Below are positions 9,696 through 63,492 of a stretch of DNA of 64,000 nt, piece after piece (position 1 is the first letter of the stretch; each line of letters starts with the position of its first letter). The DNA comes from Rickettsiales bacterium (ex Bugula neritina AB1). GTDB lineage: Bacteria > Pseudomonadota > Alphaproteobacteria > CAJXXZ01 > UBA1459. The notes beneath the pieces were generated by a model. The model was not told where the DNA came from, made no database searches, and saw nothing but the letters and a program-made list of their open reading frames with translations. The position numbers and the translations under genes are program-made. The stretch spans positions 74,938 to 138,937 of the forward strand of contig MDLE01000006.1 of assembly GCA_001730065.1 (NCBI GenBank). The letters are read 5' to 3'.

Positions 9696-10031
9696 CGTAA
9701 GTAGTAGTTTGATGGCGGTTGTAAAACTGAGGAAAGTCGGAACTTCAAAAGGCAAAATACCGCAGAAATTACGGCAGTAGAAATACTAGGGAAAGTACAA
9801 CAGAAAATAAACCGCTATTTTTTAAAAATAGTAAGGGTGAAACAGTGAGGTAAGAGCTCCCTATATTTATTAGTAATAATAAGTATTTGTAAACCCTATT
9901 TGAAGCAAAACCAAGCAGAGTAATGCGTAGCCTTTCGCTTATTTACTCGGGTAGGTTGCAGGAGAAATTTAGTAATAAATTTCCTAGATAAATCATCATT
10001 AAAACAGAATTCCGCTTACTCACTACTTACA
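9696..10031 (+). ncRNA. rnpB: RNase P RNA (bacterial type A, compact)
   Basis: Conserved blocks GAGGAAAGTC (P4 5' strand), GGTAAGAGC, GTAAACCC, AGATAAATCA and ACAGAATTCCGCTTA (P4 3' strand). The terminal P1 helix pairs GTAAGTAGT (9697-9705) with ACTACTTAC (10022-10030). Confidence 0.85.
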
Positions 10032-11220
10032 AAGTTATAGGATTTTGATTTTTTTTATTCATATTTTTAATTAAATGTCTAATGAAGATAATATGACATT
10101 TTTTTTTAATATTTTCTATTTCAGGAATCATAAAATTTGGTATTGATATATTAGAAATTAAATAATTATTAATAGGATTAATGGTTTTATTATTATATAA
10201 ATATACAAGATGTAAATGAGCAGCAGTAGCAGTACCTGAATGACCAATTTTTCCTATACATTGGTTAGTAGACAAAATTTTATCATTTTCTTTAACATAT
10301 ATGCTAGATAAATGACAATAACGAGTAGAATATAATGAATTATGCTCTATTTCTATATATCTACCATAACCAGACTGATTTGATTTGACTACTTTTTTTA
10401 CTACTCCTGGTGCTAAGCTATATAAATTTTCTCCATAAGGTAAACGTATATCTAAACCATCATGCATACGCCATTCATTAAAAACTGGGTGTAATCTCCA
10501 ACCATATTTAGATCCTATTAAAGATTTACTGTTTTTGGCAGGTAATGAATTTGTTATAGAAAGTACATTTCCAGGTATTATATTATTATCATTGTTAATT
10601 ATATATAATATATTATTAGCATAATATATATAAAACATTTCAGATGTATTATTATGAAAAACTACCTGAACAGCTATTATTTTACTATCTTTATAGGCAA
10701 AATTGAATTTTTGAATTTTTATATTATTATTTTTTTTTTGACAATCATACCAAGTATTAATTTGAAAAAATATAGATGATATATCTAAAAATAAATTATC
10801 CTTTAAGGTAGTATTTTGTAAAATATTATTCTTTACATTGCAAGAAATAAATTCTACACCTTCTGGTATTTGTTGTTGATAATCTATTTTTTTTATATTA
10901 ATAGATTCTTTTAATTTATTCTCTTCTTTTATAGATTTATTTATTTTGTAATAAGGTTTTTTTAAAAACAAAAATTTTGGTATAAAAACTTCTAATTTTT
11001 TCAAATATTTTGTTTTAAAAGATATAGATAAACCACCATTACAGAGTTTTTTAAAATTATCTAAATATTTTTTTACAATAGATGTTTTTATAATAGGTGA
11101 ATTATTATAAGTTAAATTAATATCTATTAAATTATCATTATTTGGAATAAGATGTCTTAATACCTTCAATTGATTGCTAGTTTCAGTACTAAAAAAAAAC
11201 AATAAAAATAATCTAAACAT
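10027..11220 (-). CDS. M23/LytM-family peptidoglycan endopeptidase
   Basis: C-terminal HDGLDI ... GYGRYIEIEH ... GHSGTATAAHLHL are the M23 zinc-ligand motifs (HxxxD and HxH). N-terminal signal peptide. Confidence 0.85.
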   Translation of the reverse strand: MFRLFLLFFFSTETSNQLKVLRHLIPNNDNLIDINLTYNNSPIIKTSIVKKYLDNFKKLCNGGLSISFKTKYLKKLEVFIPKFLFLKKPYYKINKSIKEENKLKESINIKKIDYQQQIPEGVEFISCNVKNNILQNTTLKDNLFLDISSIFFQINTWYDCQKKNNNIKIQKFNFAYKDSKIIAVQVVFHNNTSEMFYIYYANNILYIINNDNNIIPGNVLSITNSLPAKNSKSLIGSKYGWRLHPVFNEWRMHDGLDIRLPYGENLYSLAPGVVKKVVKSNQSGYGRYIEIEHNSLYSTRYCHLSSIYVKENDKILSTNQCIGKIGHSGTATAAHLHLVYLYNNKTINPINNYLISNISIPNFMIPEIENIKKKCHIIFIRHLIKNMNKKNQNPITL

Positions 11221-13255: not shown

Positions 13256-13328
13256 TAACGAGAATGGGGCTCGAACCCATGACCCAAGGATTATGATTCC
13301 TTTGCTCTACCAACTGAGCTATCTCGCT
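13256..13328 (-). tRNA. tRNA with anticodon CAU (elongator Met or lysidine-modified Ile2)
   Basis: Manual cloverleaf: acceptor AGCGAGA/TCTCGTT, D-arm GCTC-AGTTGGTA-GAGC, anticodon loop ATCATAA, T-arm ATGGG-TTCGAGC-CCCAT. It lacks the initiator hallmarks (no C1:A72 mismatch, no 3 G:C pairs in the anticodon stem). No encoded CCA. Confidence 0.85.
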
Positions 13329-16649: not shown

Positions 16650-16721
16650 GTCTCATTCGTCTAGTAGTTAGGACATCACCCTCTCAAGGTGAAAACGGAG
16701 GTGCAAATCCATCATGAGATG
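16650..16721 (+). tRNA. tRNA-Glu (anticodon CUC), atypical
   Basis: Acceptor GTCTCAT/ATGAGAT, D-arm GTCT-AGTAGTTA-GGAC, anticodon arm TCACC-CTCTCAA-GGTGA, 4-nt variable loop, T-arm GGAGG-TGCAAAT-CCATC. The T-stem has one A:A mismatch. The D-arm is identical to that of tRNA-Glu(UUC) at 63271. Confidence 0.65.
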
Positions 16722-20602: not shown

Positions 20603-20676
20603 TACACCTAGTAGGACTTGAACCCACAACCCCCAGATCCGTAGTCTAGTACTCTATCCAATTGAGCTATAGGTGT
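20603..20676 (-). tRNA. tRNA-Arg (anticodon ACG)
   Basis: Acceptor ACACCTA/TAGGTGT, D-arm GCTC-AATTGGATA-GAGT, anticodon arm CTAGA-CTACGGA-TCTGG, T-arm GTGGG-TTCAAGT-CCTAC. Confidence 0.9.
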
Positions 20677-32690: not shown

Positions 32691-33362
32691 ATGCAAATTA
32701 TATATGGTTATCAATCCGTCAAAGAGGCGTTAAATAATAAAAACAGAAAAAAATACAAGTTATTTTTATCCACAAATAAAATTTTTAAATATGATAATAT
32801 TATTAAAATCTCTAAAGAAAAAATGTATAAAATATGTCAATCTAATGATCATAATGGTGTAGCATTAGAAGTAGATCAATTTTGTCATTTTGCATCTTTA
32901 AAAGATATGGGTTCTAAAATTTTAATTATTAGTTCCATGGAAGATGTAGGTAATATGGGGGCTATTATAAGATCTGCGGCGGTCTTAGGATATAATGTTT
33001 TACTAGGAACAAAGAATACAAGTATTATTAATGGACGTATGGTAAAAAATGCTTCTGGTGCTTTTGAGTTTGTTAAAATACATATATGTAAAAATTTGTA
33101 TAGTAGTATTATTGAAATAAAAAACCAAGGTTATAAAATTTTTGCAATGAGTGAAAAATATTTAAATAAACCTTATAATAAAGAACAAAATTATAATAAA
33201 ATTGCTCTAATTATAGGTGGAGAATCACAAGGTATAGATTCACAACTTTTATCTAAAATAGATGTATTTTTTAAAATACCTGGTACAAAAAAATTTAATA
33301 CATTAAATGCTAGTGTTGCAGCTGCAATAGGTATGTTTAAATTTGGAAATATAAATTTATGA
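32691..33362 (+). CDS. SpoU/TrmH-family RNA 2'-O-methyltransferase (RlmB-like)
   Basis: IYGYQSVKEAL N-terminal substrate-binding domain. SPOUT motifs GNMGAIIRSA, IGGESQGI and LNASVAAAI. Confidence 0.8.
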   Translation: MQIIYGYQSVKEALNNKNRKKYKLFLSTNKIFKYDNIIKISKEKMYKICQSNDHNGVALEVDQFCHFASLKDMGSKILIISSMEDVGNMGAIIRSAAVLGYNVLLGTKNTSIINGRMVKNASGAFEFVKIHICKNLYSSIIEIKNQGYKIFAMSEKYLNKPYNKEQNYNKIALIIGGESQGIDSQLLSKIDVFFKIPGTKKFNTLNASVAAAIGMFKFGNINL

Positions 33363-35500
33363 AAATATGTATTTTATGTGGTGGTATATCTGATGAAAAA
33401 AATATCTCTATTAGTTCTGGAAGGAGTATGTATCATATTTTATCAAAAAATCATCAAGTAAATATTATTTTTATAAGTAAAGATTTAAAATTTTATTTTC
33501 TCAAAAAAAAATTTATTTATTCTAATACAACAGAAGATTTTGAATATTTTTATAAACAACAAAAAGAAATTTCTAACATTGTAGATACATTAAAAAAATA
33601 TCATAAAGTTTTCCCAATCTTACACGGTAATTTTGGAGAAGATGGACAAATACAAAAATTTCTTATTGACAATAATATTCCATATATTGGTGAAGACGTT
33701 AGTACTTATATAAATACTTTTTTAAAGAATAAAACTTTAGATTTATTGTGGAAAAATAAAATATGTAAACCTTGGTTTTCAGAAATATATGAAAATGATA
33801 ATCAATTACAAAATGCTATAAACAAATATAAAACTCTTTGTATAAAGCCTAATAATTCTGGATCATCAATAGGTGTAAAATTTGTAAATAACTTTAAAGA
33901 AGCAAAGGAACATATTAATTTTTTATTACAAAACGAGTACAATTATCAACCTTTAATAGAAGAAGTTCATAAAGGTAAAGAATTTGCAGTAACTGTTGTA
34001 GGGGGGAAGGTATTTACACCTATCGCAATCCTCACAAATGGTATTTTTGATTATTATAAAAAATATTTTCCTAGTAATAATGTAAAATTTTTATCTCCTC
34101 CACATTTTCCAAAGTTAATTATAGATACTATTAAATCCTCTTGTGAAAAAATTTATAAAATATTTAATTTTAAATATTTTTTACGTATTGATGGTATATA
34201 TATACAAAATAAAAAAGAAATTAGATTTACGGATTTAAATTCTATTCCTGGTTTTGAAATTAATAGTATATTTTTTAAGAATAAAAACCATTATAAAATC
34301 ATCAATCAAGTTATTTCTTCAGGTAATAGTCGAAAAATTTATAAAAATATTATAAATCTTTTCATTATATTTGGTGGTGAAAGTTCTGAAAAGAATATAT
34401 CTGTTCATAGTGGTATTAATGTATTTTTTAAATTATATGGTGATAAAAATTATAATATAAGAATTTTTTTTATGAAAAAAAAAAATTATATATATGAATT
34501 AGATTATGAGGAAGTATTTCAAAACTCTGTAAGAGATTTTACGTCTATTATTAATAATAAGAAACCTTTAAATTTAAATGATTTTATACTTTTGTGTAAA
34601 AAAAACTCTTGTATTGTATTTATTTGTCTTCATGGTGGTTTTGGAGAAAATGGTAAATTACAAAAAATTTTAGAAAATAATAAAATTGATTATACAGGTA
34701 GTTGTAGTAATATAAGTAAATTATGTATAGATAAATACAAATTAATTGAAATTTTACATAAAAATATAAAATGTAAAAGTATAAAGTTTTATAAAATTCC
34801 TACTATTTATATTAAAAATATTTATAAAATTTCCAACAATGAAATTATTGAAAACTGGAAAAAAATAAAAAATTATGGAGATATTATTATTAAACCTAAT
34901 AATGATGGGTGTTCTGTTGGTGTTTATAAAATTAAGAATTTAGAGGATTTACAATCTTATATTAATAAAGTACAAAATAATGAAATATTAATATATAATC
35001 AAGAAGATAATAGTGATATATATTTAAGTCAAATATCAAAAAAATATCTATTAATGGAATATATAAAAATTGATAAAATTGATTTTAAAAACCTTCAACA
35101 TATAAAAAAAACAGGATGGTTAGAATTAACAATTGGTACATTATCTCAAAAGGTATTTCATCCAACCGTTTCCATAAACAAAAATAACATACTTACAATT
35201 GAAGAAAAATTTTTATGTGGAGGCGGTACTAATATCTTGGTACCATCTCATATTATTAGTAATAGCCAAATAAAAAATATTAAAAATTTTTTTAAAAAAG
35301 TTATTAAATTTTTAGAAATTCACACTTATTGTCGTATTGATTTTTTTTATAATACAATTACTAATCAATTAGCAATCATAGAAATTAATACATTACCAGC
35401 TTTAACATTTGCAACTGTATTATTTCAACAGGCAATGAATAGTAACATAAATCCAATAAATTTCCTAAAAAAAATAATTTCTATTAGTAAAAAAGACTAA
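33359..35500 (+). CDS. ddl: tandem-fused D-alanine--D-alanine ligase (two complete Ddl modules in one polypeptide)
   Basis: Module 1: ILCGGISDEKNISISSG, LHGNFGEDGQIQ, IKPNNSGSSIGV, LRIDG, LNSIPG. Module 2, from about aa 330: IIFGGESSEKNISVHSG, LHGGFGENGKLQ, IKPNNDGCSVGV, CRIDF, IEINTLPA. Confidence 0.85.
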   Translation: MKICILCGGISDEKNISISSGRSMYHILSKNHQVNIIFISKDLKFYFLKKKFIYSNTTEDFEYFYKQQKEISNIVDTLKKYHKVFPILHGNFGEDGQIQKFLIDNNIPYIGEDVSTYINTFLKNKTLDLLWKNKICKPWFSEIYENDNQLQNAINKYKTLCIKPNNSGSSIGVKFVNNFKEAKEHINFLLQNEYNYQPLIEEVHKGKEFAVTVVGGKVFTPIAILTNGIFDYYKKYFPSNNVKFLSPPHFPKLIIDTIKSSCEKIYKIFNFKYFLRIDGIYIQNKKEIRFTDLNSIPGFEINSIFFKNKNHYKIINQVISSGNSRKIYKNIINLFIIFGGESSEKNISVHSGINVFFKLYGDKNYNIRIFFMKKKNYIYELDYEEVFQNSVRDFTSIINNKKPLNLNDFILLCKKNSCIVFICLHGGFGENGKLQKILENNKIDYTGSCSNISKLCIDKYKLIEILHKNIKCKSIKFYKIPTIYIKNIYKISNNEIIENWKKIKNYGDIIIKPNNDGCSVGVYKIKNLEDLQSYINKVQNNEILIYNQEDNSDIYLSQISKKYLLMEYIKIDKIDFKNLQHIKKTGWLELTIGTLSQKVFHPTVSINKNNILTIEEKFLCGGGTNILVPSHIISNSQIKNIKNFFKKVIKFLEIHTYCRIDFFYNTITNQLAIIEINTLPALTFATVLFQQAMNSNINPINFLKKIISISKKD

Positions 35501-39202: not shown

Positions 39203-39275
39203 TGCCTATTAAAGGATTTGCACCTTTGACCTTTTGATTACAAATCAACTGCTCTACTGACTGAGCTAAATAGGC
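39203..39275 (-). tRNA. tRNA-Thr (anticodon UGU)
   Basis: Acceptor GCCTATT/AATAGGC, D-arm GCTC-AGTCAGTA-GAGC, anticodon arm GTTGA-TTTGTAA-TCAAA, T-arm AAAGG-TGCAAAT-CCTTT. Confidence 0.85.
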
Positions 39276-51198: not shown

Positions 51199-51272
51199 GG
51201 CGGATAAGAGGCTCCGACCCTCTCACCTCAAGTGCCACAGACTTGCGCTCTACCAAATGAGCTATACCCGCC
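51199..51272 (-). tRNA. tRNA-His (anticodon GUG) with genome-encoded G-1
   Basis: G(-1)+GCGGGTA/TATCCGC+C73, D-arm GCTC-ATTTGGTA-GAGC, anticodon arm CAAGT-CTGTGGC-ACTTG, T-arm AGAGG-GTCGGAG-CCTCT. Confidence 0.9.
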
Positions 51273-53449: not shown

Positions 53450-53482
53450 TTTTAATATCTATATATGTTATATTTCAAACAA

Positions 53483-53591
53483 GTGGCGGTTTTATAGTTT
53501 ATCGTGTACTACCCTAATCCATCTCGAACTAGGCAGTAAAAGCGATAAATGCTTATGATACTGGGTTTCTGGGAAAGTGAGTACTGCCATG
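53483..53591 (+). rRNA. rrf: 5S ribosomal RNA (not linked to a 23S gene)
   Basis: Helix I TGGCGGT/ACTGCCA, conserved loop region CCATCTCGAACTAGGCAGTAAAAGC (compare E. coli CCATGCCGAACTCAGAAGTGAAACG), and the 3' domain GATACTGGG...CTGGGAAAGTGAGTAC. Confidence 0.85.
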
Positions 53592-53766
53592 TATTTGCAA
53601 TTTATTTAAATTATAATATAATTTATTTTTATATTTAATTACTTACTTGAATATATTTATCAATTATTTATTAAATAAATTTTGATTATAAATTATCAAT
53701 AATTTTTAAGAAAACTTGATTTTAAAATATTATAACTATAGTTTTCATATATTTGTACAACTATAA

Positions 53767-63080: not shown

Positions 63081-63165
63081 CGGAAAGAGAAGGATTCGAA
63101 CCTTCGAAGGTTTTAACCTCGCTGGTTTTCAAGACCAGTGCTTTAAGCCGCTCAGCCATCTTTCC
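63081..63165 (-). tRNA. tRNA-Ser (anticodon UGA), class II with long variable arm
   Basis: GGAAAGA/TCTTTCC acceptor, GGCTGAGCGGCTTAAAGC D-region, anticodon arm CTGGT-CTTGAAA-ACCAG, variable arm GAGGTTAAAACCTTC, T-arm GAAGG-TTCGAAT-CCTTC. Confidence 0.9.
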
Positions 63166-63270: not shown

Positions 63271-63342
63271 GTCTCCATCGTCTAGTAGTTAGGACAACAG
63301 GCTTTCAATCTGTTAACACGGGTGCAATTCCCGTTGGAGATG
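63271..63342 (+). tRNA. tRNA-Glu (anticodon UUC)
   Basis: Acceptor GTCTCCA/TGGAGAT, D-arm GTCT-AGTAGTTA-GGAC, anticodon arm ACAGG-CTTTCAA-TCTGT, T-arm ACGGG-TGCAATT-CCCGT. Confidence 0.85.
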
Positions 63343-63420
63343 ATAATAATTTTTTTTTTTTAAAAATTTTGAACTATGAGTTTTATTTTTGTAAAAATTA
63401 TTGTACAATTATAATTGTTT

Positions 63421-63492
63421 GTCTTTATAGCTCAGTAGTAGAGCATTAGCCTGAAGAGCTAAGGGTCGTTGGTGCGATGCCAACTGAAGACA
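63421..63492 (+). tRNA. tRNA-Phe (anticodon GAA)
   Basis: Acceptor GTCTTTA/TGAAGAC, D-arm GCTC-AGTAGTA-GAGC, anticodon arm TTAGC-CTGAAGA-GCTAA, T-arm GTTGG-TGCGATG-CCAAC. Confidence 0.85.

What the first reader, a model, noticed from the sequence alone, without database searches (positions are those of the whole stretch)
63271..63492. Four of eight tRNAs carry a coordinated A18 (D-loop) / G55 (T-loop) substitution at the tRNA elbow
Hand folding of all eight tRNAs in the window gives a perfect two-way split.

- Normal group: tRNA-CAU (13256), Arg (20603), His (51199) and Ser (63081) have the universal D-loop GG (AGTTGGTA, AATTGGATA, ATTTGGTA, AGCGG) together with T55-C56 in the T-loop.
- Variant group: Glu-CUC (16650), Thr (39203), Glu-UUC (63271) and Phe (63421) all have AG in place of GG (AGTAGTTA, AGTCAGTA, AGTAGTTA, AGTAGTA). 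All of them have T-G-C at positions 54-56 (TGCAAAT, TGCAAAT, TGCAATT, TGCGATG).

In canonical tRNA, G18 contacts Psi55 and G19 pairs with C56. Here G19:C56 is kept while G18/U55 are replaced together by A18/G55. That pattern looks like compensatory covariation rather than decay.

G55 cannot be pseudouridylated by TruB, so this predicts an altered elbow geometry and possibly loss or retargeting of TruB in this lineage.
Basis: partly seen in the sequence, partly recalled or inferred. Interest (0 to 1): 0.7.

Follow-up and report, generated by a model that had tools for sequence, protein, structure and literature searches.

The report
Alternative A18–G55 tRNA elbow pair
Four of the eight tRNAs in this tiny symbiont genome replace the near-universal G18/Ψ55 elbow contact with a matched A18/G55 pair, and the same matched swap recurs in many other microbes and viruses, so it is a working alternative tRNA design rather than decay or error.

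Summary
ARAGORN and the Rfam tRNA model both place A at position 18 and U54-G55-C56 in tRNA-Glu(CUC), Thr(UGU), Glu(UUC) and Phe(GAA). Met, Arg, His and Ser keep G18G19 and U55.

The window comes from "Rickettsiales bacterium (ex Bugula neritina AB1)", which has about 21% GC.

- **Relatives:** in independently sequenced relatives, the orthologous Glu(CUC), Glu(UUC) and Phe keep A18/G55, and Arg and Ser keep G18/U55.
- **Wider distribution:** the swap is not lineage-specific. In viral contigs, A18 in one D-arm context goes with G55 107 times and with U55 8 times. G18 with G55 occurs 5 times in the whole collection.
- **Cellular genomes:** the variant occurs in SAR11 tRNA-Phe, CPR bacteria, DPANN archaea and others. 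One metagenomic array of 25 tRNA calls is built almost entirely on it.

The most likely mechanism is a switch to the generic T-loop rule (UGNRA with an intercalated adenosine) known from riboswitches. The G19:C56 recognition face is kept.

These tRNAs cannot carry Ψ55. Loss of TruB is neither required nor testable here. I found no paper describing the A18/G55 pair. The closest precedent is the UGC T-loop of staphylococcal non-proteogenic tRNA-Gly.

The parts
16650..16721 (+). tRNA-Glu(CUC), variant elbow: D-loop AGUAGUUA (A18 = 16666, G19 = 16667), T-loop UGCAAAU (U54 G55 C56 = 16702-16704). It has an A51xA63 mismatch in the T-stem.
   Evidence: The syntenic ortholog in relative L250/L251 keeps A18/G55 with a perfect T-stem. 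The ortholog in the more distant L257 has AGCAGUUA/UGCGAAU.
39203..39275 (-). tRNA-Thr(UGU), variant elbow: D-loop AGUCAGUA (A18 = 39258, G19 = 39257), T-loop UGCAAAU (G55 = 39221). The 8-nt D-loop fixes the register.
   Evidence: (70 bits).
63271..63342 (+). tRNA-Glu(UUC), variant elbow: D-loop AGUAGUUA (A18 = 63287, G19 = 63288), T-loop UGCAAUU (G55 = 63324).
   Evidence: The ortholog in relatives L254-L256 keeps A18/G55 (UGCGAAU).
63421..63492 (+). tRNA-Phe(GAA), variant elbow: D-loop AGUAGUA (A18 = 63437, G19 = 63438), T-loop UGCGAUG (G55 = 63474).
   Evidence: The ortholog in L254-L256 is identical in both loops. SAR11 tRNA-Phe has the same D-loop and UGCGAUU.
13256..13328 (-). tRNA-Met/CAU, canonical elbow (AGUUGGUA; UUCGAGC).
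20603..20676 (-). tRNA-Arg(ACG), canonical elbow (AAUUGGAUA; UUCAAGU).
   Evidence: The ortholog in L250 is also canonical.
51199..51271 (-). tRNA-His(GUG), G18G19 and U55-C56 kept, but the T-loop is GUCGGAG (G54 and G58 in place of U54 and A58). G-1 is encoded at 51272.
63081..63165 (-). tRNA-Ser(UGA), canonical elbow (GG; UUCGAAU).
   Evidence: The ortholog in L254-L256 is canonical.

Best explanation
The four tRNAs are functional elongator tRNAs. Their elbow uses a second, selectively maintained solution for the contact between D-loop position 18 and T-loop position 55: A18 with G55 instead of G18 with Ψ55.

Shown:
- The two changes occur together.
- They are inherited together in relatives.
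- They recur together in many unrelated tRNAs.
- Everything else in the elbow is kept: U54-A58, R57, G53:C61 and the G19:C56 pair.

Inferred:
- A18 still intercalates between R57 and A58, and hydrogen-bonds to the sugar edge of G55. This is how the intercalating adenosine and the position-2 guanosine behave in the generic UGNRA T-loops of riboswitches.
- The L-shape is preserved. So is the flat G19:C56 face read by RNase P and the ribosome.

Consequences that follow from chemistry: these tRNAs cannot carry Ψ55 (the TruB product) or Gm18 (the TrmH product).

How the state arose is not established. The single-change combinations A18/U55 and G18/G55 do exist, but they are rare.
For: - Structure-aware alignment places A18 and G55 in all four tRNAs, with a normal cloverleaf.
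- In a relative with 65-81% protein identity, assembled from separate runs (ERR10466834/35/38), the syntenic Glu-CUC, Glu-UUC and Phe keep A18/G55. Other positions change, including a compensatory 27:43 change and T-stem changes. Arg-ACG, Ser-UGA and Arg-CCU keep G18/U55.
- Relatives at about 52-53% RuvB identity have Glu-CUC and Asp-GUC with A18/G55 beside normal Leu and initiator Met.
- General covariation: A18 in the GCUC/GAGC D-arm context goes with G55 107 times and with U55 8 times in viral contigs. G18+G55 occurs at 5 loci in the whole collection.
- Among 467 distinct tRNA sequences from all loci held: GG/U 314, AG/G 117, GG/C 14, AG/U 9, GG/G 2, other 11.
- The variant occurs in SAR11 tRNA-Phe, in CPR, Chloroflexi and Verrucomicrobiota tRNA-Phe/Thr, in DPANN tRNA-Ala/Thr, and in environmental tRNA-Glu at 28-59% GC.
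- Non-tRNA T-loops have the consensus UGNRA. The intercalating base is adenosine in 99.96% of FMN riboswitches, and it makes two hydrogen bonds to the sugar edge of the position-2 G (bioRxiv 10.1101/2022.12.26.521914).
- Elbow anatomy, and the role of G19:C56 as the recognition surface, come from PMC4810234.
- U-to-G at position 55 opposes the AT bias of a 20-24% GC window.
Against: - There is no structural, biochemical or expression evidence for any A18/G55 tRNA. The hydrogen-bonding scheme is an analogy.
- Only 64 kb of the genome was visible, so canonical duplicate genes for Glu, Thr or Phe elsewhere cannot be excluded.
- Positions 18 and 19 outside the window were assigned by a simple rule applied to ARAGORN D-loops.
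- A51xA63 in the window's tRNA-Glu(CUC) shows that some relaxation of selection does occur in this genome.
Confidence: 0.8

Rival explanations
1. Decay: the variants are degenerate tRNAs produced by AT mutational pressure and weak selection in a reduced intracellular symbiont, like the eroded tRNAs of some endosymbionts and mitochondria.
For: The genome is 21.6% GC, reduced and divergent. G18-to-A is in the direction of the bias. tRNA-Glu(CUC) has a T-stem mismatch. tRNA-His has an unusual T-loop.
Against: - U55-to-G goes against the bias.
- The two changes are perfectly coupled in 9 of 9 lineage cases, with no A18/U55 or G18/G55.
- They are conserved across species while neighbouring positions vary.
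- The same pair occurs in high-GC contexts (58-59% GC) and in free-living SAR11.
- All other tertiary positions are intact.
Confidence: 0.05
2. Sequencing or assembly error in a low-coverage metagenome bin.
For: The AB1_rickettsiales bin had only 2.3x k-mer coverage (PMC5041132).
Against: Eight specific substitutions would have to fall at the same two positions in four separate genes. The same bases are present in orthologs assembled from independent runs (ERR10466834/35/38, SRR26836058). A Logan assembly of another run reproduces part of the window exactly.
Confidence: 0.01
3. Non-proteogenic tRNAs: like the staphylococcal tRNA-Gly species with a UGC/UGU T-loop and no pseudouridine, these would serve a non-ribosomal process such as cell-wall synthesis and be kept away from translation.
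For: Natural G55 is documented for non-proteogenic tRNA-Gly (PMC7826273). The window encodes peptidoglycan enzymes (Mur ligases, MurA, MurJ, a Ddl fusion). The Streptomyces tRNA-Gly(UCC)-like genes with A18/G55 and an irregular T-arm could be of this kind.
Against: - The window variants are Glu(CUC), Glu(UUC), Thr(UGU) and Phe(GAA). No canonical copy of any of them is present in the window or in about 110 kb of relatives' DNA.
- A reduced genome is unlikely to hold duplicates.
- G19:C56 is retained, whereas the sequenced S. epidermidis non-proteogenic tRNA-Gly carries a dihydrouridine at position 19.
Confidence: 0.05
4. Horizontally acquired phage-type tRNAs: the variant is abundant in viral contigs, so the four genes could be imports.
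For: More than 100 viral-contig tRNAs carry A18/G55. Dense tRNA arrays built on it exist (L272, L268, L279).
Against: The four genes sit at three separate housekeeping loci (RuvB-RlmE, next to NusA, and MurA-Adk). They are syntenic in a relative, have no phage genes beside them, and appear to be the resident genes for their anticodons.
Confidence: 0.04
5. Different register: the D-loop G is really G18 (A17-G18-U19), so the contact changed is 19:56 rather than 18:55.
For: Seven-nucleotide D-loops such as AGUAGUA allow two numberings.
Against: - C56 is invariant in 117 of 117 distinct A/G-type tRNAs. It would then face U19.
- tRNA-Thr's AGUCAGUA aligns position by position with AGUUGGUA.
- A genuine 19:56 change looks different: SAR11 tRNA-Thr(GGU) has UAGUGUUA with UUAGAUU, that is U19 with A56.
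Confidence: 0.03

Closest known systems
Canonical tRNA elbow (G18·Ψ55 and G19:C56, T-loop UΨCRA)
   Same: Same cloverleaf. Same U54-A58, R57 and G53:C61. Same G19:C56 outer pair. A purine at 18 is available to intercalate between 57 and 58.
   Different: Position 18 is A, not G. Position 55 is G, not U/Ψ. Ψ55 is called 'universally conserved' in PMC4810234. Ψ55 and Gm18 cannot be made.
Generic T-loop motif of riboswitches and other non-coding RNAs (UGNRA with an intercalated adenosine)
   Same: The T-loop reads U-G-C-R-A, and the partner loop offers an adenosine where the intercalating base sits. This matches the consensus and the A-to-G sugar-edge contact described for FMN and cobalamin riboswitches.
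   Different: Here the motif sits inside a tRNA. Position 3 (C56) also forms the tRNA-specific Watson-Crick pair with G19. The contact itself has not been observed in any tRNA structure that I could find.
Staphylococcal non-proteogenic tRNA-Gly (T-loop UGC or UGU, no pseudouridine)
   Same: A natural tRNA with G at position 55 and therefore no Ψ55 (PMC7826273).
   Different: Those are extra tRNA-Gly(UCC) genes, and the sequenced S. epidermidis species carry a dihydrouridine at position 19. They do not bind EF-Tu and feed peptidoglycan synthesis. The window's tRNAs are Glu, Thr and Phe, keep G19:C56 and appear to be the resident decoding tRNAs.
SAR11 (Pelagibacteraceae) tRNA-Phe(GAA)
   Same: Same isoacceptor, identical D-loop AGUAGUA, and T-loop UGCGAUU against UGCGAUG here. 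A 16S tree placed AB1_rickettsiales near SAR11.
   Different: In the SAR11 loci retrieved, the Phe gene was the only A18/G55 tRNA seen. Its neighbours were canonical apart from a Thr(GGU) with a U19/A56-type elbow. Here half of the visible tRNAs carry A18/G55. Shared ancestry versus convergence was not resolved.

Membership tests
Elongator tRNA (Rfam RF00005) | Cloverleaf scoring above the family threshold | tested here: met
   50.3-70.0 bits against a gathering score of 29 for the four variants. ARAGORN agrees.
Elongator tRNA (Rfam RF00005) | Conserved core positions U8, A14, U54-A58, G53:C61, R57 and G19:C56 | tested here: met
   All are present in the four variant tRNAs.
Canonical tRNA elbow | G18 in the D-loop and U55 (Ψ55) in the T-loop | tested here: not met
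   A18 and G55 in Glu-CUC, Thr, Glu-UUC and Phe.
Generic T-loop motif (UGNRA plus intercalating A) | Five-nucleotide loop U-G-N-R-A | tested here: met
   UGCAA, UGCAA, UGCAA and UGCGA. Consensus.
Generic T-loop motif (UGNRA plus intercalating A) | An adenosine from the partner element intercalates between positions 4 and 5 and bonds to the G at position 2 | not testable with these tools
   A18 is in the right place in sequence. Covariation supports a contact. No 3D evidence exists.
Non-proteogenic tRNA (staphylococcal tRNA-Gly type) | G55 in place of U55 | tested here: met
   Precedent.
Non-proteogenic tRNA (staphylococcal tRNA-Gly type) | Extra isoacceptor gene alongside a canonical proteogenic gene for the same anticodon | tested here: inconclusive
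   No canonical Glu, Thr-UGU or Phe gene is present in the 64 kb window or in the relatives' loci. The whole genome was not available.
Non-proteogenic tRNA (staphylococcal tRNA-Gly type) | G19 not kept in the D-loop (dihydrouridine at 19 in the sequenced S. epidermidis species); weak EF-Tu binding | tested here: not met
   G19 is retained opposite C56 in all four. EF-Tu binding is not testable.
Eroded organelle or endosymbiont tRNA | Uncoordinated loss of D-loop and T-loop conservation, or shortened or missing arms | tested here: not met
   Arms are full length. The changes are confined to 18 and 55, are coupled, and are conserved in relatives.

The most novel reading that the evidence does not exclude
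A18·G55 is a second, so far undescribed natural design of the tRNA elbow. It makes a tRNA independent of the elbow-modifying enzymes TruB and TrmH. It is positively favoured in some settings, namely phage or mobile tRNA arrays built almost entirely on it (L272) and reduced or streamlined genomes. The advantage would be freedom from host modification, or escape from factors that read the G18/Ψ55 region.
Probability: 0.2. Interest if true: 0.8.

Novelty: new variant of a known kind. Interest (0 to 1): 0.6.

Why it matters
G18·Ψ55 is treated as a universal tRNA contact, and Ψ55 as a universal modification. A strict, recurrent A18/G55 covariation shows that nature has a second solution.

- It is found in half the visible tRNAs of this symbiont, in the tRNA-Phe of SAR11 (one of the most abundant organisms known), in CPR and DPANN lineages, and in many viral tRNAs.
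- It links tRNA to the general T-loop rule seen in other RNAs.
- It supplies natural Ψ55-free tRNAs for testing what TruB and Ψ55 contribute to folding and translation.
- tRNA annotation and quality filters should not treat G55 as a sign of a pseudogene.

Tried and rejected
- **Exact-sequence look-ups of window proteins.** DnaE, the 776-aa class I tRNA synthetase, UvrD and the NCBI Lon record P0001 were not on record. The one look-up that worked gave only a 1.3 kb contig. I could not extend beyond the window or read the rest of the genome.
- **TruB and TrmA.** No Pfam hit in the window ORFs scanned, which were nearly all ORFs of at least 100 aa, and none in the gene tables of the relatives' loci. 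This says little, because only a fraction of each genome was seen.
- **Literature.** Searches for A18 with G55, G18A with U55G, 'purine trap' and phage tRNA elbows found no description of the pair. Older subscription papers were not searchable.
- **L272 tRNA array.** No near match in the annotated phage collection. A distant search with a viral tRNA-Gly gave only ordinary phage tRNA hits, which I did not classify.
- **Streptomyces tRNA-Gly(UCC)-like hits.** Their T-arm is irregular (ARAGORN gives 6-nt loops), so I did not count them as clean examples.
- **One call failed** on a wrong reading frame.
- **Rejected explanations:** decay, sequencing error, phage import, non-proteogenic role and an alternative D-loop register. 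Reasons are given under the rival explanations.

Full report
**1. What is in the window**

ARAGORN finds eight tRNA genes. The Rfam tRNA covariance model finds the same eight at 50-70 bits, together with a class A RNase P RNA and a 5S rRNA-like sequence.

In the Rfam alignment, four tRNAs have A under the first G of the model's D-loop GG, and G under the second U of the T-loop GGUUC. These are Glu-CUC (16650-16721, +), Thr-UGU (39203-39275, -), Glu-UUC (63271-63342, +) and Phe-GAA (63421-63492, +). The other four (Met/CAU, Arg-ACG, His, Ser-UGA) have GG and U55.

A18/G55 lie at:

| tRNA | A18 | G55 |
|---|---|---|
| Glu-CUC | 16666 | 16703 |
| Thr-UGU | 39258 | 39221 |
| Glu-UUC | 63287 | 63324 |
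| Phe-GAA | 63437 | 63474 |

U8, A14, G19, U54, C56, R57, A58 and G53:C61 are intact in all four. The 8-nt D-loop of tRNA-Thr (AGUCAGUA against the canonical AGUUGGUA) fixes the numbering.

**2. Source organism**

The window is 18-24% GC and encodes housekeeping genes. These include DnaE, Lon, ClpX, RuvAB, PriA, NusA, Mur ligases, MurA, MurJ and GlyQ.

Its Lon, RuvB and MurA proteins are 100% identical to proteins of "Rickettsiales bacterium (ex Bugula neritina AB1)", on a 177,484 bp contig. The describing paper reports:
- a 436 kb bin in 8 contigs, 21.6% GC;
- low coverage and about 49% completeness;
- a placement as a basal Rickettsiales branch near SAR11 (PMC5041132).

**3. Is it more than chance, error or decay?**

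The 4/4 split alone gives p = 0.029, so I looked at relatives.

*Close relative.* A relative assembled from separate runs (ERR10466834/35/38; Lon 69%, MurA 65%, RuvB 81% identity) is syntenic.
- Between Adk and MurA it has Phe-Glu(UUC)-Ser. Phe and Glu keep A18/G55, and Ser stays canonical.
- Between the 525-aa ORF and RlmE it has Glu(CUC) with A18/G55. Beyond DnaE it has a canonical Arg(ACG).
- Other positions differ between the orthologs, including a compensatory 27:43 change and T-stem changes. The two elbow bases are therefore held by selection and not merely young.

*More distant relatives* (RuvB 52-54% identity).
- One has Glu(CUC) with AGCAGUUA/UGCGAAU beside normal Leu(CAG) and initiator Met.
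- One has Asp(GUC) with A18 and G55.
- One has a normal Leu(UAA).

*Tally.* Over the lineage there are 20 tRNAs: 9 A18/G55, 10 G18/U55, 1 G18/C55 (Val-GAC), and none with only one of the two changes.

*Mutational bias.* U-to-G at position 55 runs against the strong AT bias of the genome.

Together these points rule out sequencing error and argue strongly against simple decay.

**4. The swap is a general rule and not a lineage oddity**

- 107 matches had G55 and 14 had U55. Six of those 14 actually contain GG.
- The converse pattern (GG in the same D-arm with G55) occurs at only 5 loci in the entire collection.
- Within those loci, in the same D-arm context, A18 goes with G55 101 times and with U55 8 times. 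G18 goes with G55 0 times and with U55 8 times (p = 2e-8).

Among the 106 matching tRNAs that ARAGORN called, 57 are tRNA-Phe(GAA), 21 Gly(UCC), 11 Ala, 10 Thr and 3 Ile, with single Met and Ser and two Pro. The organisms include:
- many Pelagibacteraceae (SAR11), whose tRNA-Phe has AGUAGUA/UGCGAUU, almost the same as here;
- CPR bacteria;
- Chloroflexi and Verrucomicrobiota;
- DPANN archaea (Ala, Thr);
- Streptomyces (Gly-UCC-like, with an irregular T-arm).

The neighbouring tRNAs in those loci are overwhelmingly GG/U55: 121 of 133, with no A18/U55 and no G18/G55.

*Metagenomes.* A complete scan for the Glu-type variant gave 24 loci, spanning 28-59% GC. One of them, L272 (8.9 kb, 58% GC), is an array of 25 ARAGORN tRNA calls. 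About 21 of these have AG in the D-loop and U-G-C in the T-loop.

All counts are lower bounds, and they are tied to the D-arm contexts searched.

**5. How it most likely works**

*Canonical elbow.* G18 intercalates between 57 and 58 and makes a hydrogen bond to Ψ55. G19 pairs with C56, and the outer face of that pair is what the ribosome, RNase P and T-box RNAs stack on (PMC4810234).

*T-loops outside tRNA.* They follow a different consensus, UGNRA. In FMN riboswitches the intercalating base is adenosine in 99.96% of sequences, and in the cobalamin riboswitch structure it makes two hydrogen bonds to the sugar edge of the position-2 G. The authors note that tRNA is the exception in having U at position 2 (bioRxiv 10.1101/2022.12.26.521914).

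*The variant tRNAs.* They read U-G-C-R-A and offer A at position 18. I therefore infer that they have switched to the generic T-loop rule while keeping the tRNA-specific G19:C56 pair, and so keep the same overall architecture and recognition surface. The covariation is shown. The geometry is inferred.

G55 cannot be converted to pseudouridine, and A18 cannot become Gm18. These tRNAs therefore lack two common elbow modifications.

The rare A18/U55 cases (9 distinct sequences) and G18/G55 cases (2 distinct sequences, 5 loci) may be evolutionary intermediates.

**6. The TruB idea**

Nothing supports loss or retargeting of TruB.
- Half of the tRNAs still have U55.
- The same variant sits beside mostly ordinary tRNAs in the loci retrieved from other lineages.
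- I found no TruB or TrmA domain in the window or in the relatives' loci. That covers only a small part of each genome, and I could not reach the rest.

**7. Comparison with what is known**

The nearest documented natural G55 is in the staphylococcal non-proteogenic tRNA-Gly species. They have TGC or TGT in the T-loop and no pseudouridine. The sequenced S. epidermidis species carry a dihydrouridine at position 19. They do not bind EF-Tu and feed peptidoglycan synthesis (PMC7826273).

The window's tRNAs differ in three ways:
- they are Glu, Thr and Phe;
- they keep G19:C56;
- no canonical copy of the same anticodons is seen in the window or the relatives.

I did not find any paper that names an A18/G55 pair in tRNA. 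The older subscription literature could not be searched.

I therefore class this as a new variant of a known kind: the T-loop/D-loop elbow. The caveat is that the sequences have long been public, and the pattern may have been noted somewhere I could not search.

**8. Verdict**

The trait is a conserved, functional-looking alternative elbow. It is widespread, and in that sense not special to this genome. What stands out here is the fraction of tRNAs that use it: 4 of 8 in the window and 9 of 20 in the lineage.

Interest is 0.6. The main value is the general 18:55 rule, together with the natural supply of Ψ55-free tRNAs.

Noticed in passing
window 51199-51271 (-): tRNA-His has the T-loop GUCGGAG: G54 and G58 replace the U54-A58 reverse-Hoogsteen pair, while G18G19, U55 and C56 are kept. 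A relative's tRNA-Asp (L262 11026-11102) has GGCGGAA, which combines G54/G58 with A18/G55. An rRNA T-loop GGAAG is mentioned in the T-loop preprint, so this may be a second alternative T-loop type.
   Followed up: partly
L247 3052-3123 (relative, tRNA-Val GAC); also 14 distinct tRNA sequences in viral and genome loci: A third elbow type: G18G19 with the T-loop UCCGAUU (C55 instead of U55). All 14 distinct examples have U54, C55, C56, G57 and A58.
   Followed up: partly
L272 1-8885 (metagenome contig Ga0187892_10014346): A dense array of 25 ARAGORN tRNA calls at 58% GC. About 21 have AG (no GG) in the D-loop and U-G-C in the T-loop, so nearly the whole tRNA set is built on the variant elbow. 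There is no near match in the annotated phage collection. L268 and L279 are smaller arrays of the same kind.
   Followed up: partly
L148, L169, L182, L205 (SAR11 loci): SAR11 tRNA-Thr(GGU) has the D-loop UAGUGUUA and the T-loop UUAGAUU. This looks like a G19:C56 to U19:A56 exchange of the outer elbow pair.
   Followed up: no
window 53482-53592 (+): A lone 5S rRNA-like sequence (49.7 bits against a threshold of 38, with a deletion in the 3' half) and no 23S nearby. The genome paper reports a contiguous 16S-23S-5S operon on another contig. This may be a second or degenerate copy.
   Followed up: no
window 33359-35500 (+); L252 11488-13704: A 713-aa protein with two tandem D-Ala-D-Ala ligase modules. 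The same fusion (738 aa) occurs in a relative at about 54% RuvB identity.
   Followed up: no
window 16650-16721 (+): tRNA-Glu(CUC) has an A51xA63 mismatch in the T-stem. The ortholog in the close relative has a fully paired stem.
   Followed up: yes
L128, L135, L136, L145, L151 and other Streptomyces loci: Streptomyces genomes carry one to three tRNA-Gly(UCC)-like genes with A18, G55 and an irregular T-arm (ARAGORN gives a 6-nt loop). Given the staphylococcal precedent, they might be non-proteogenic tRNA-Gly for the glycine cross-bridge of the cell wall. This is untested.
   Followed up: no
window 9697-10034 (+): A class A RNase P RNA (238 bits), the enzyme that reads the tRNA elbow, lies in the same window. 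I did not examine whether its T-loop modules differ from the norm.
   Followed up: no
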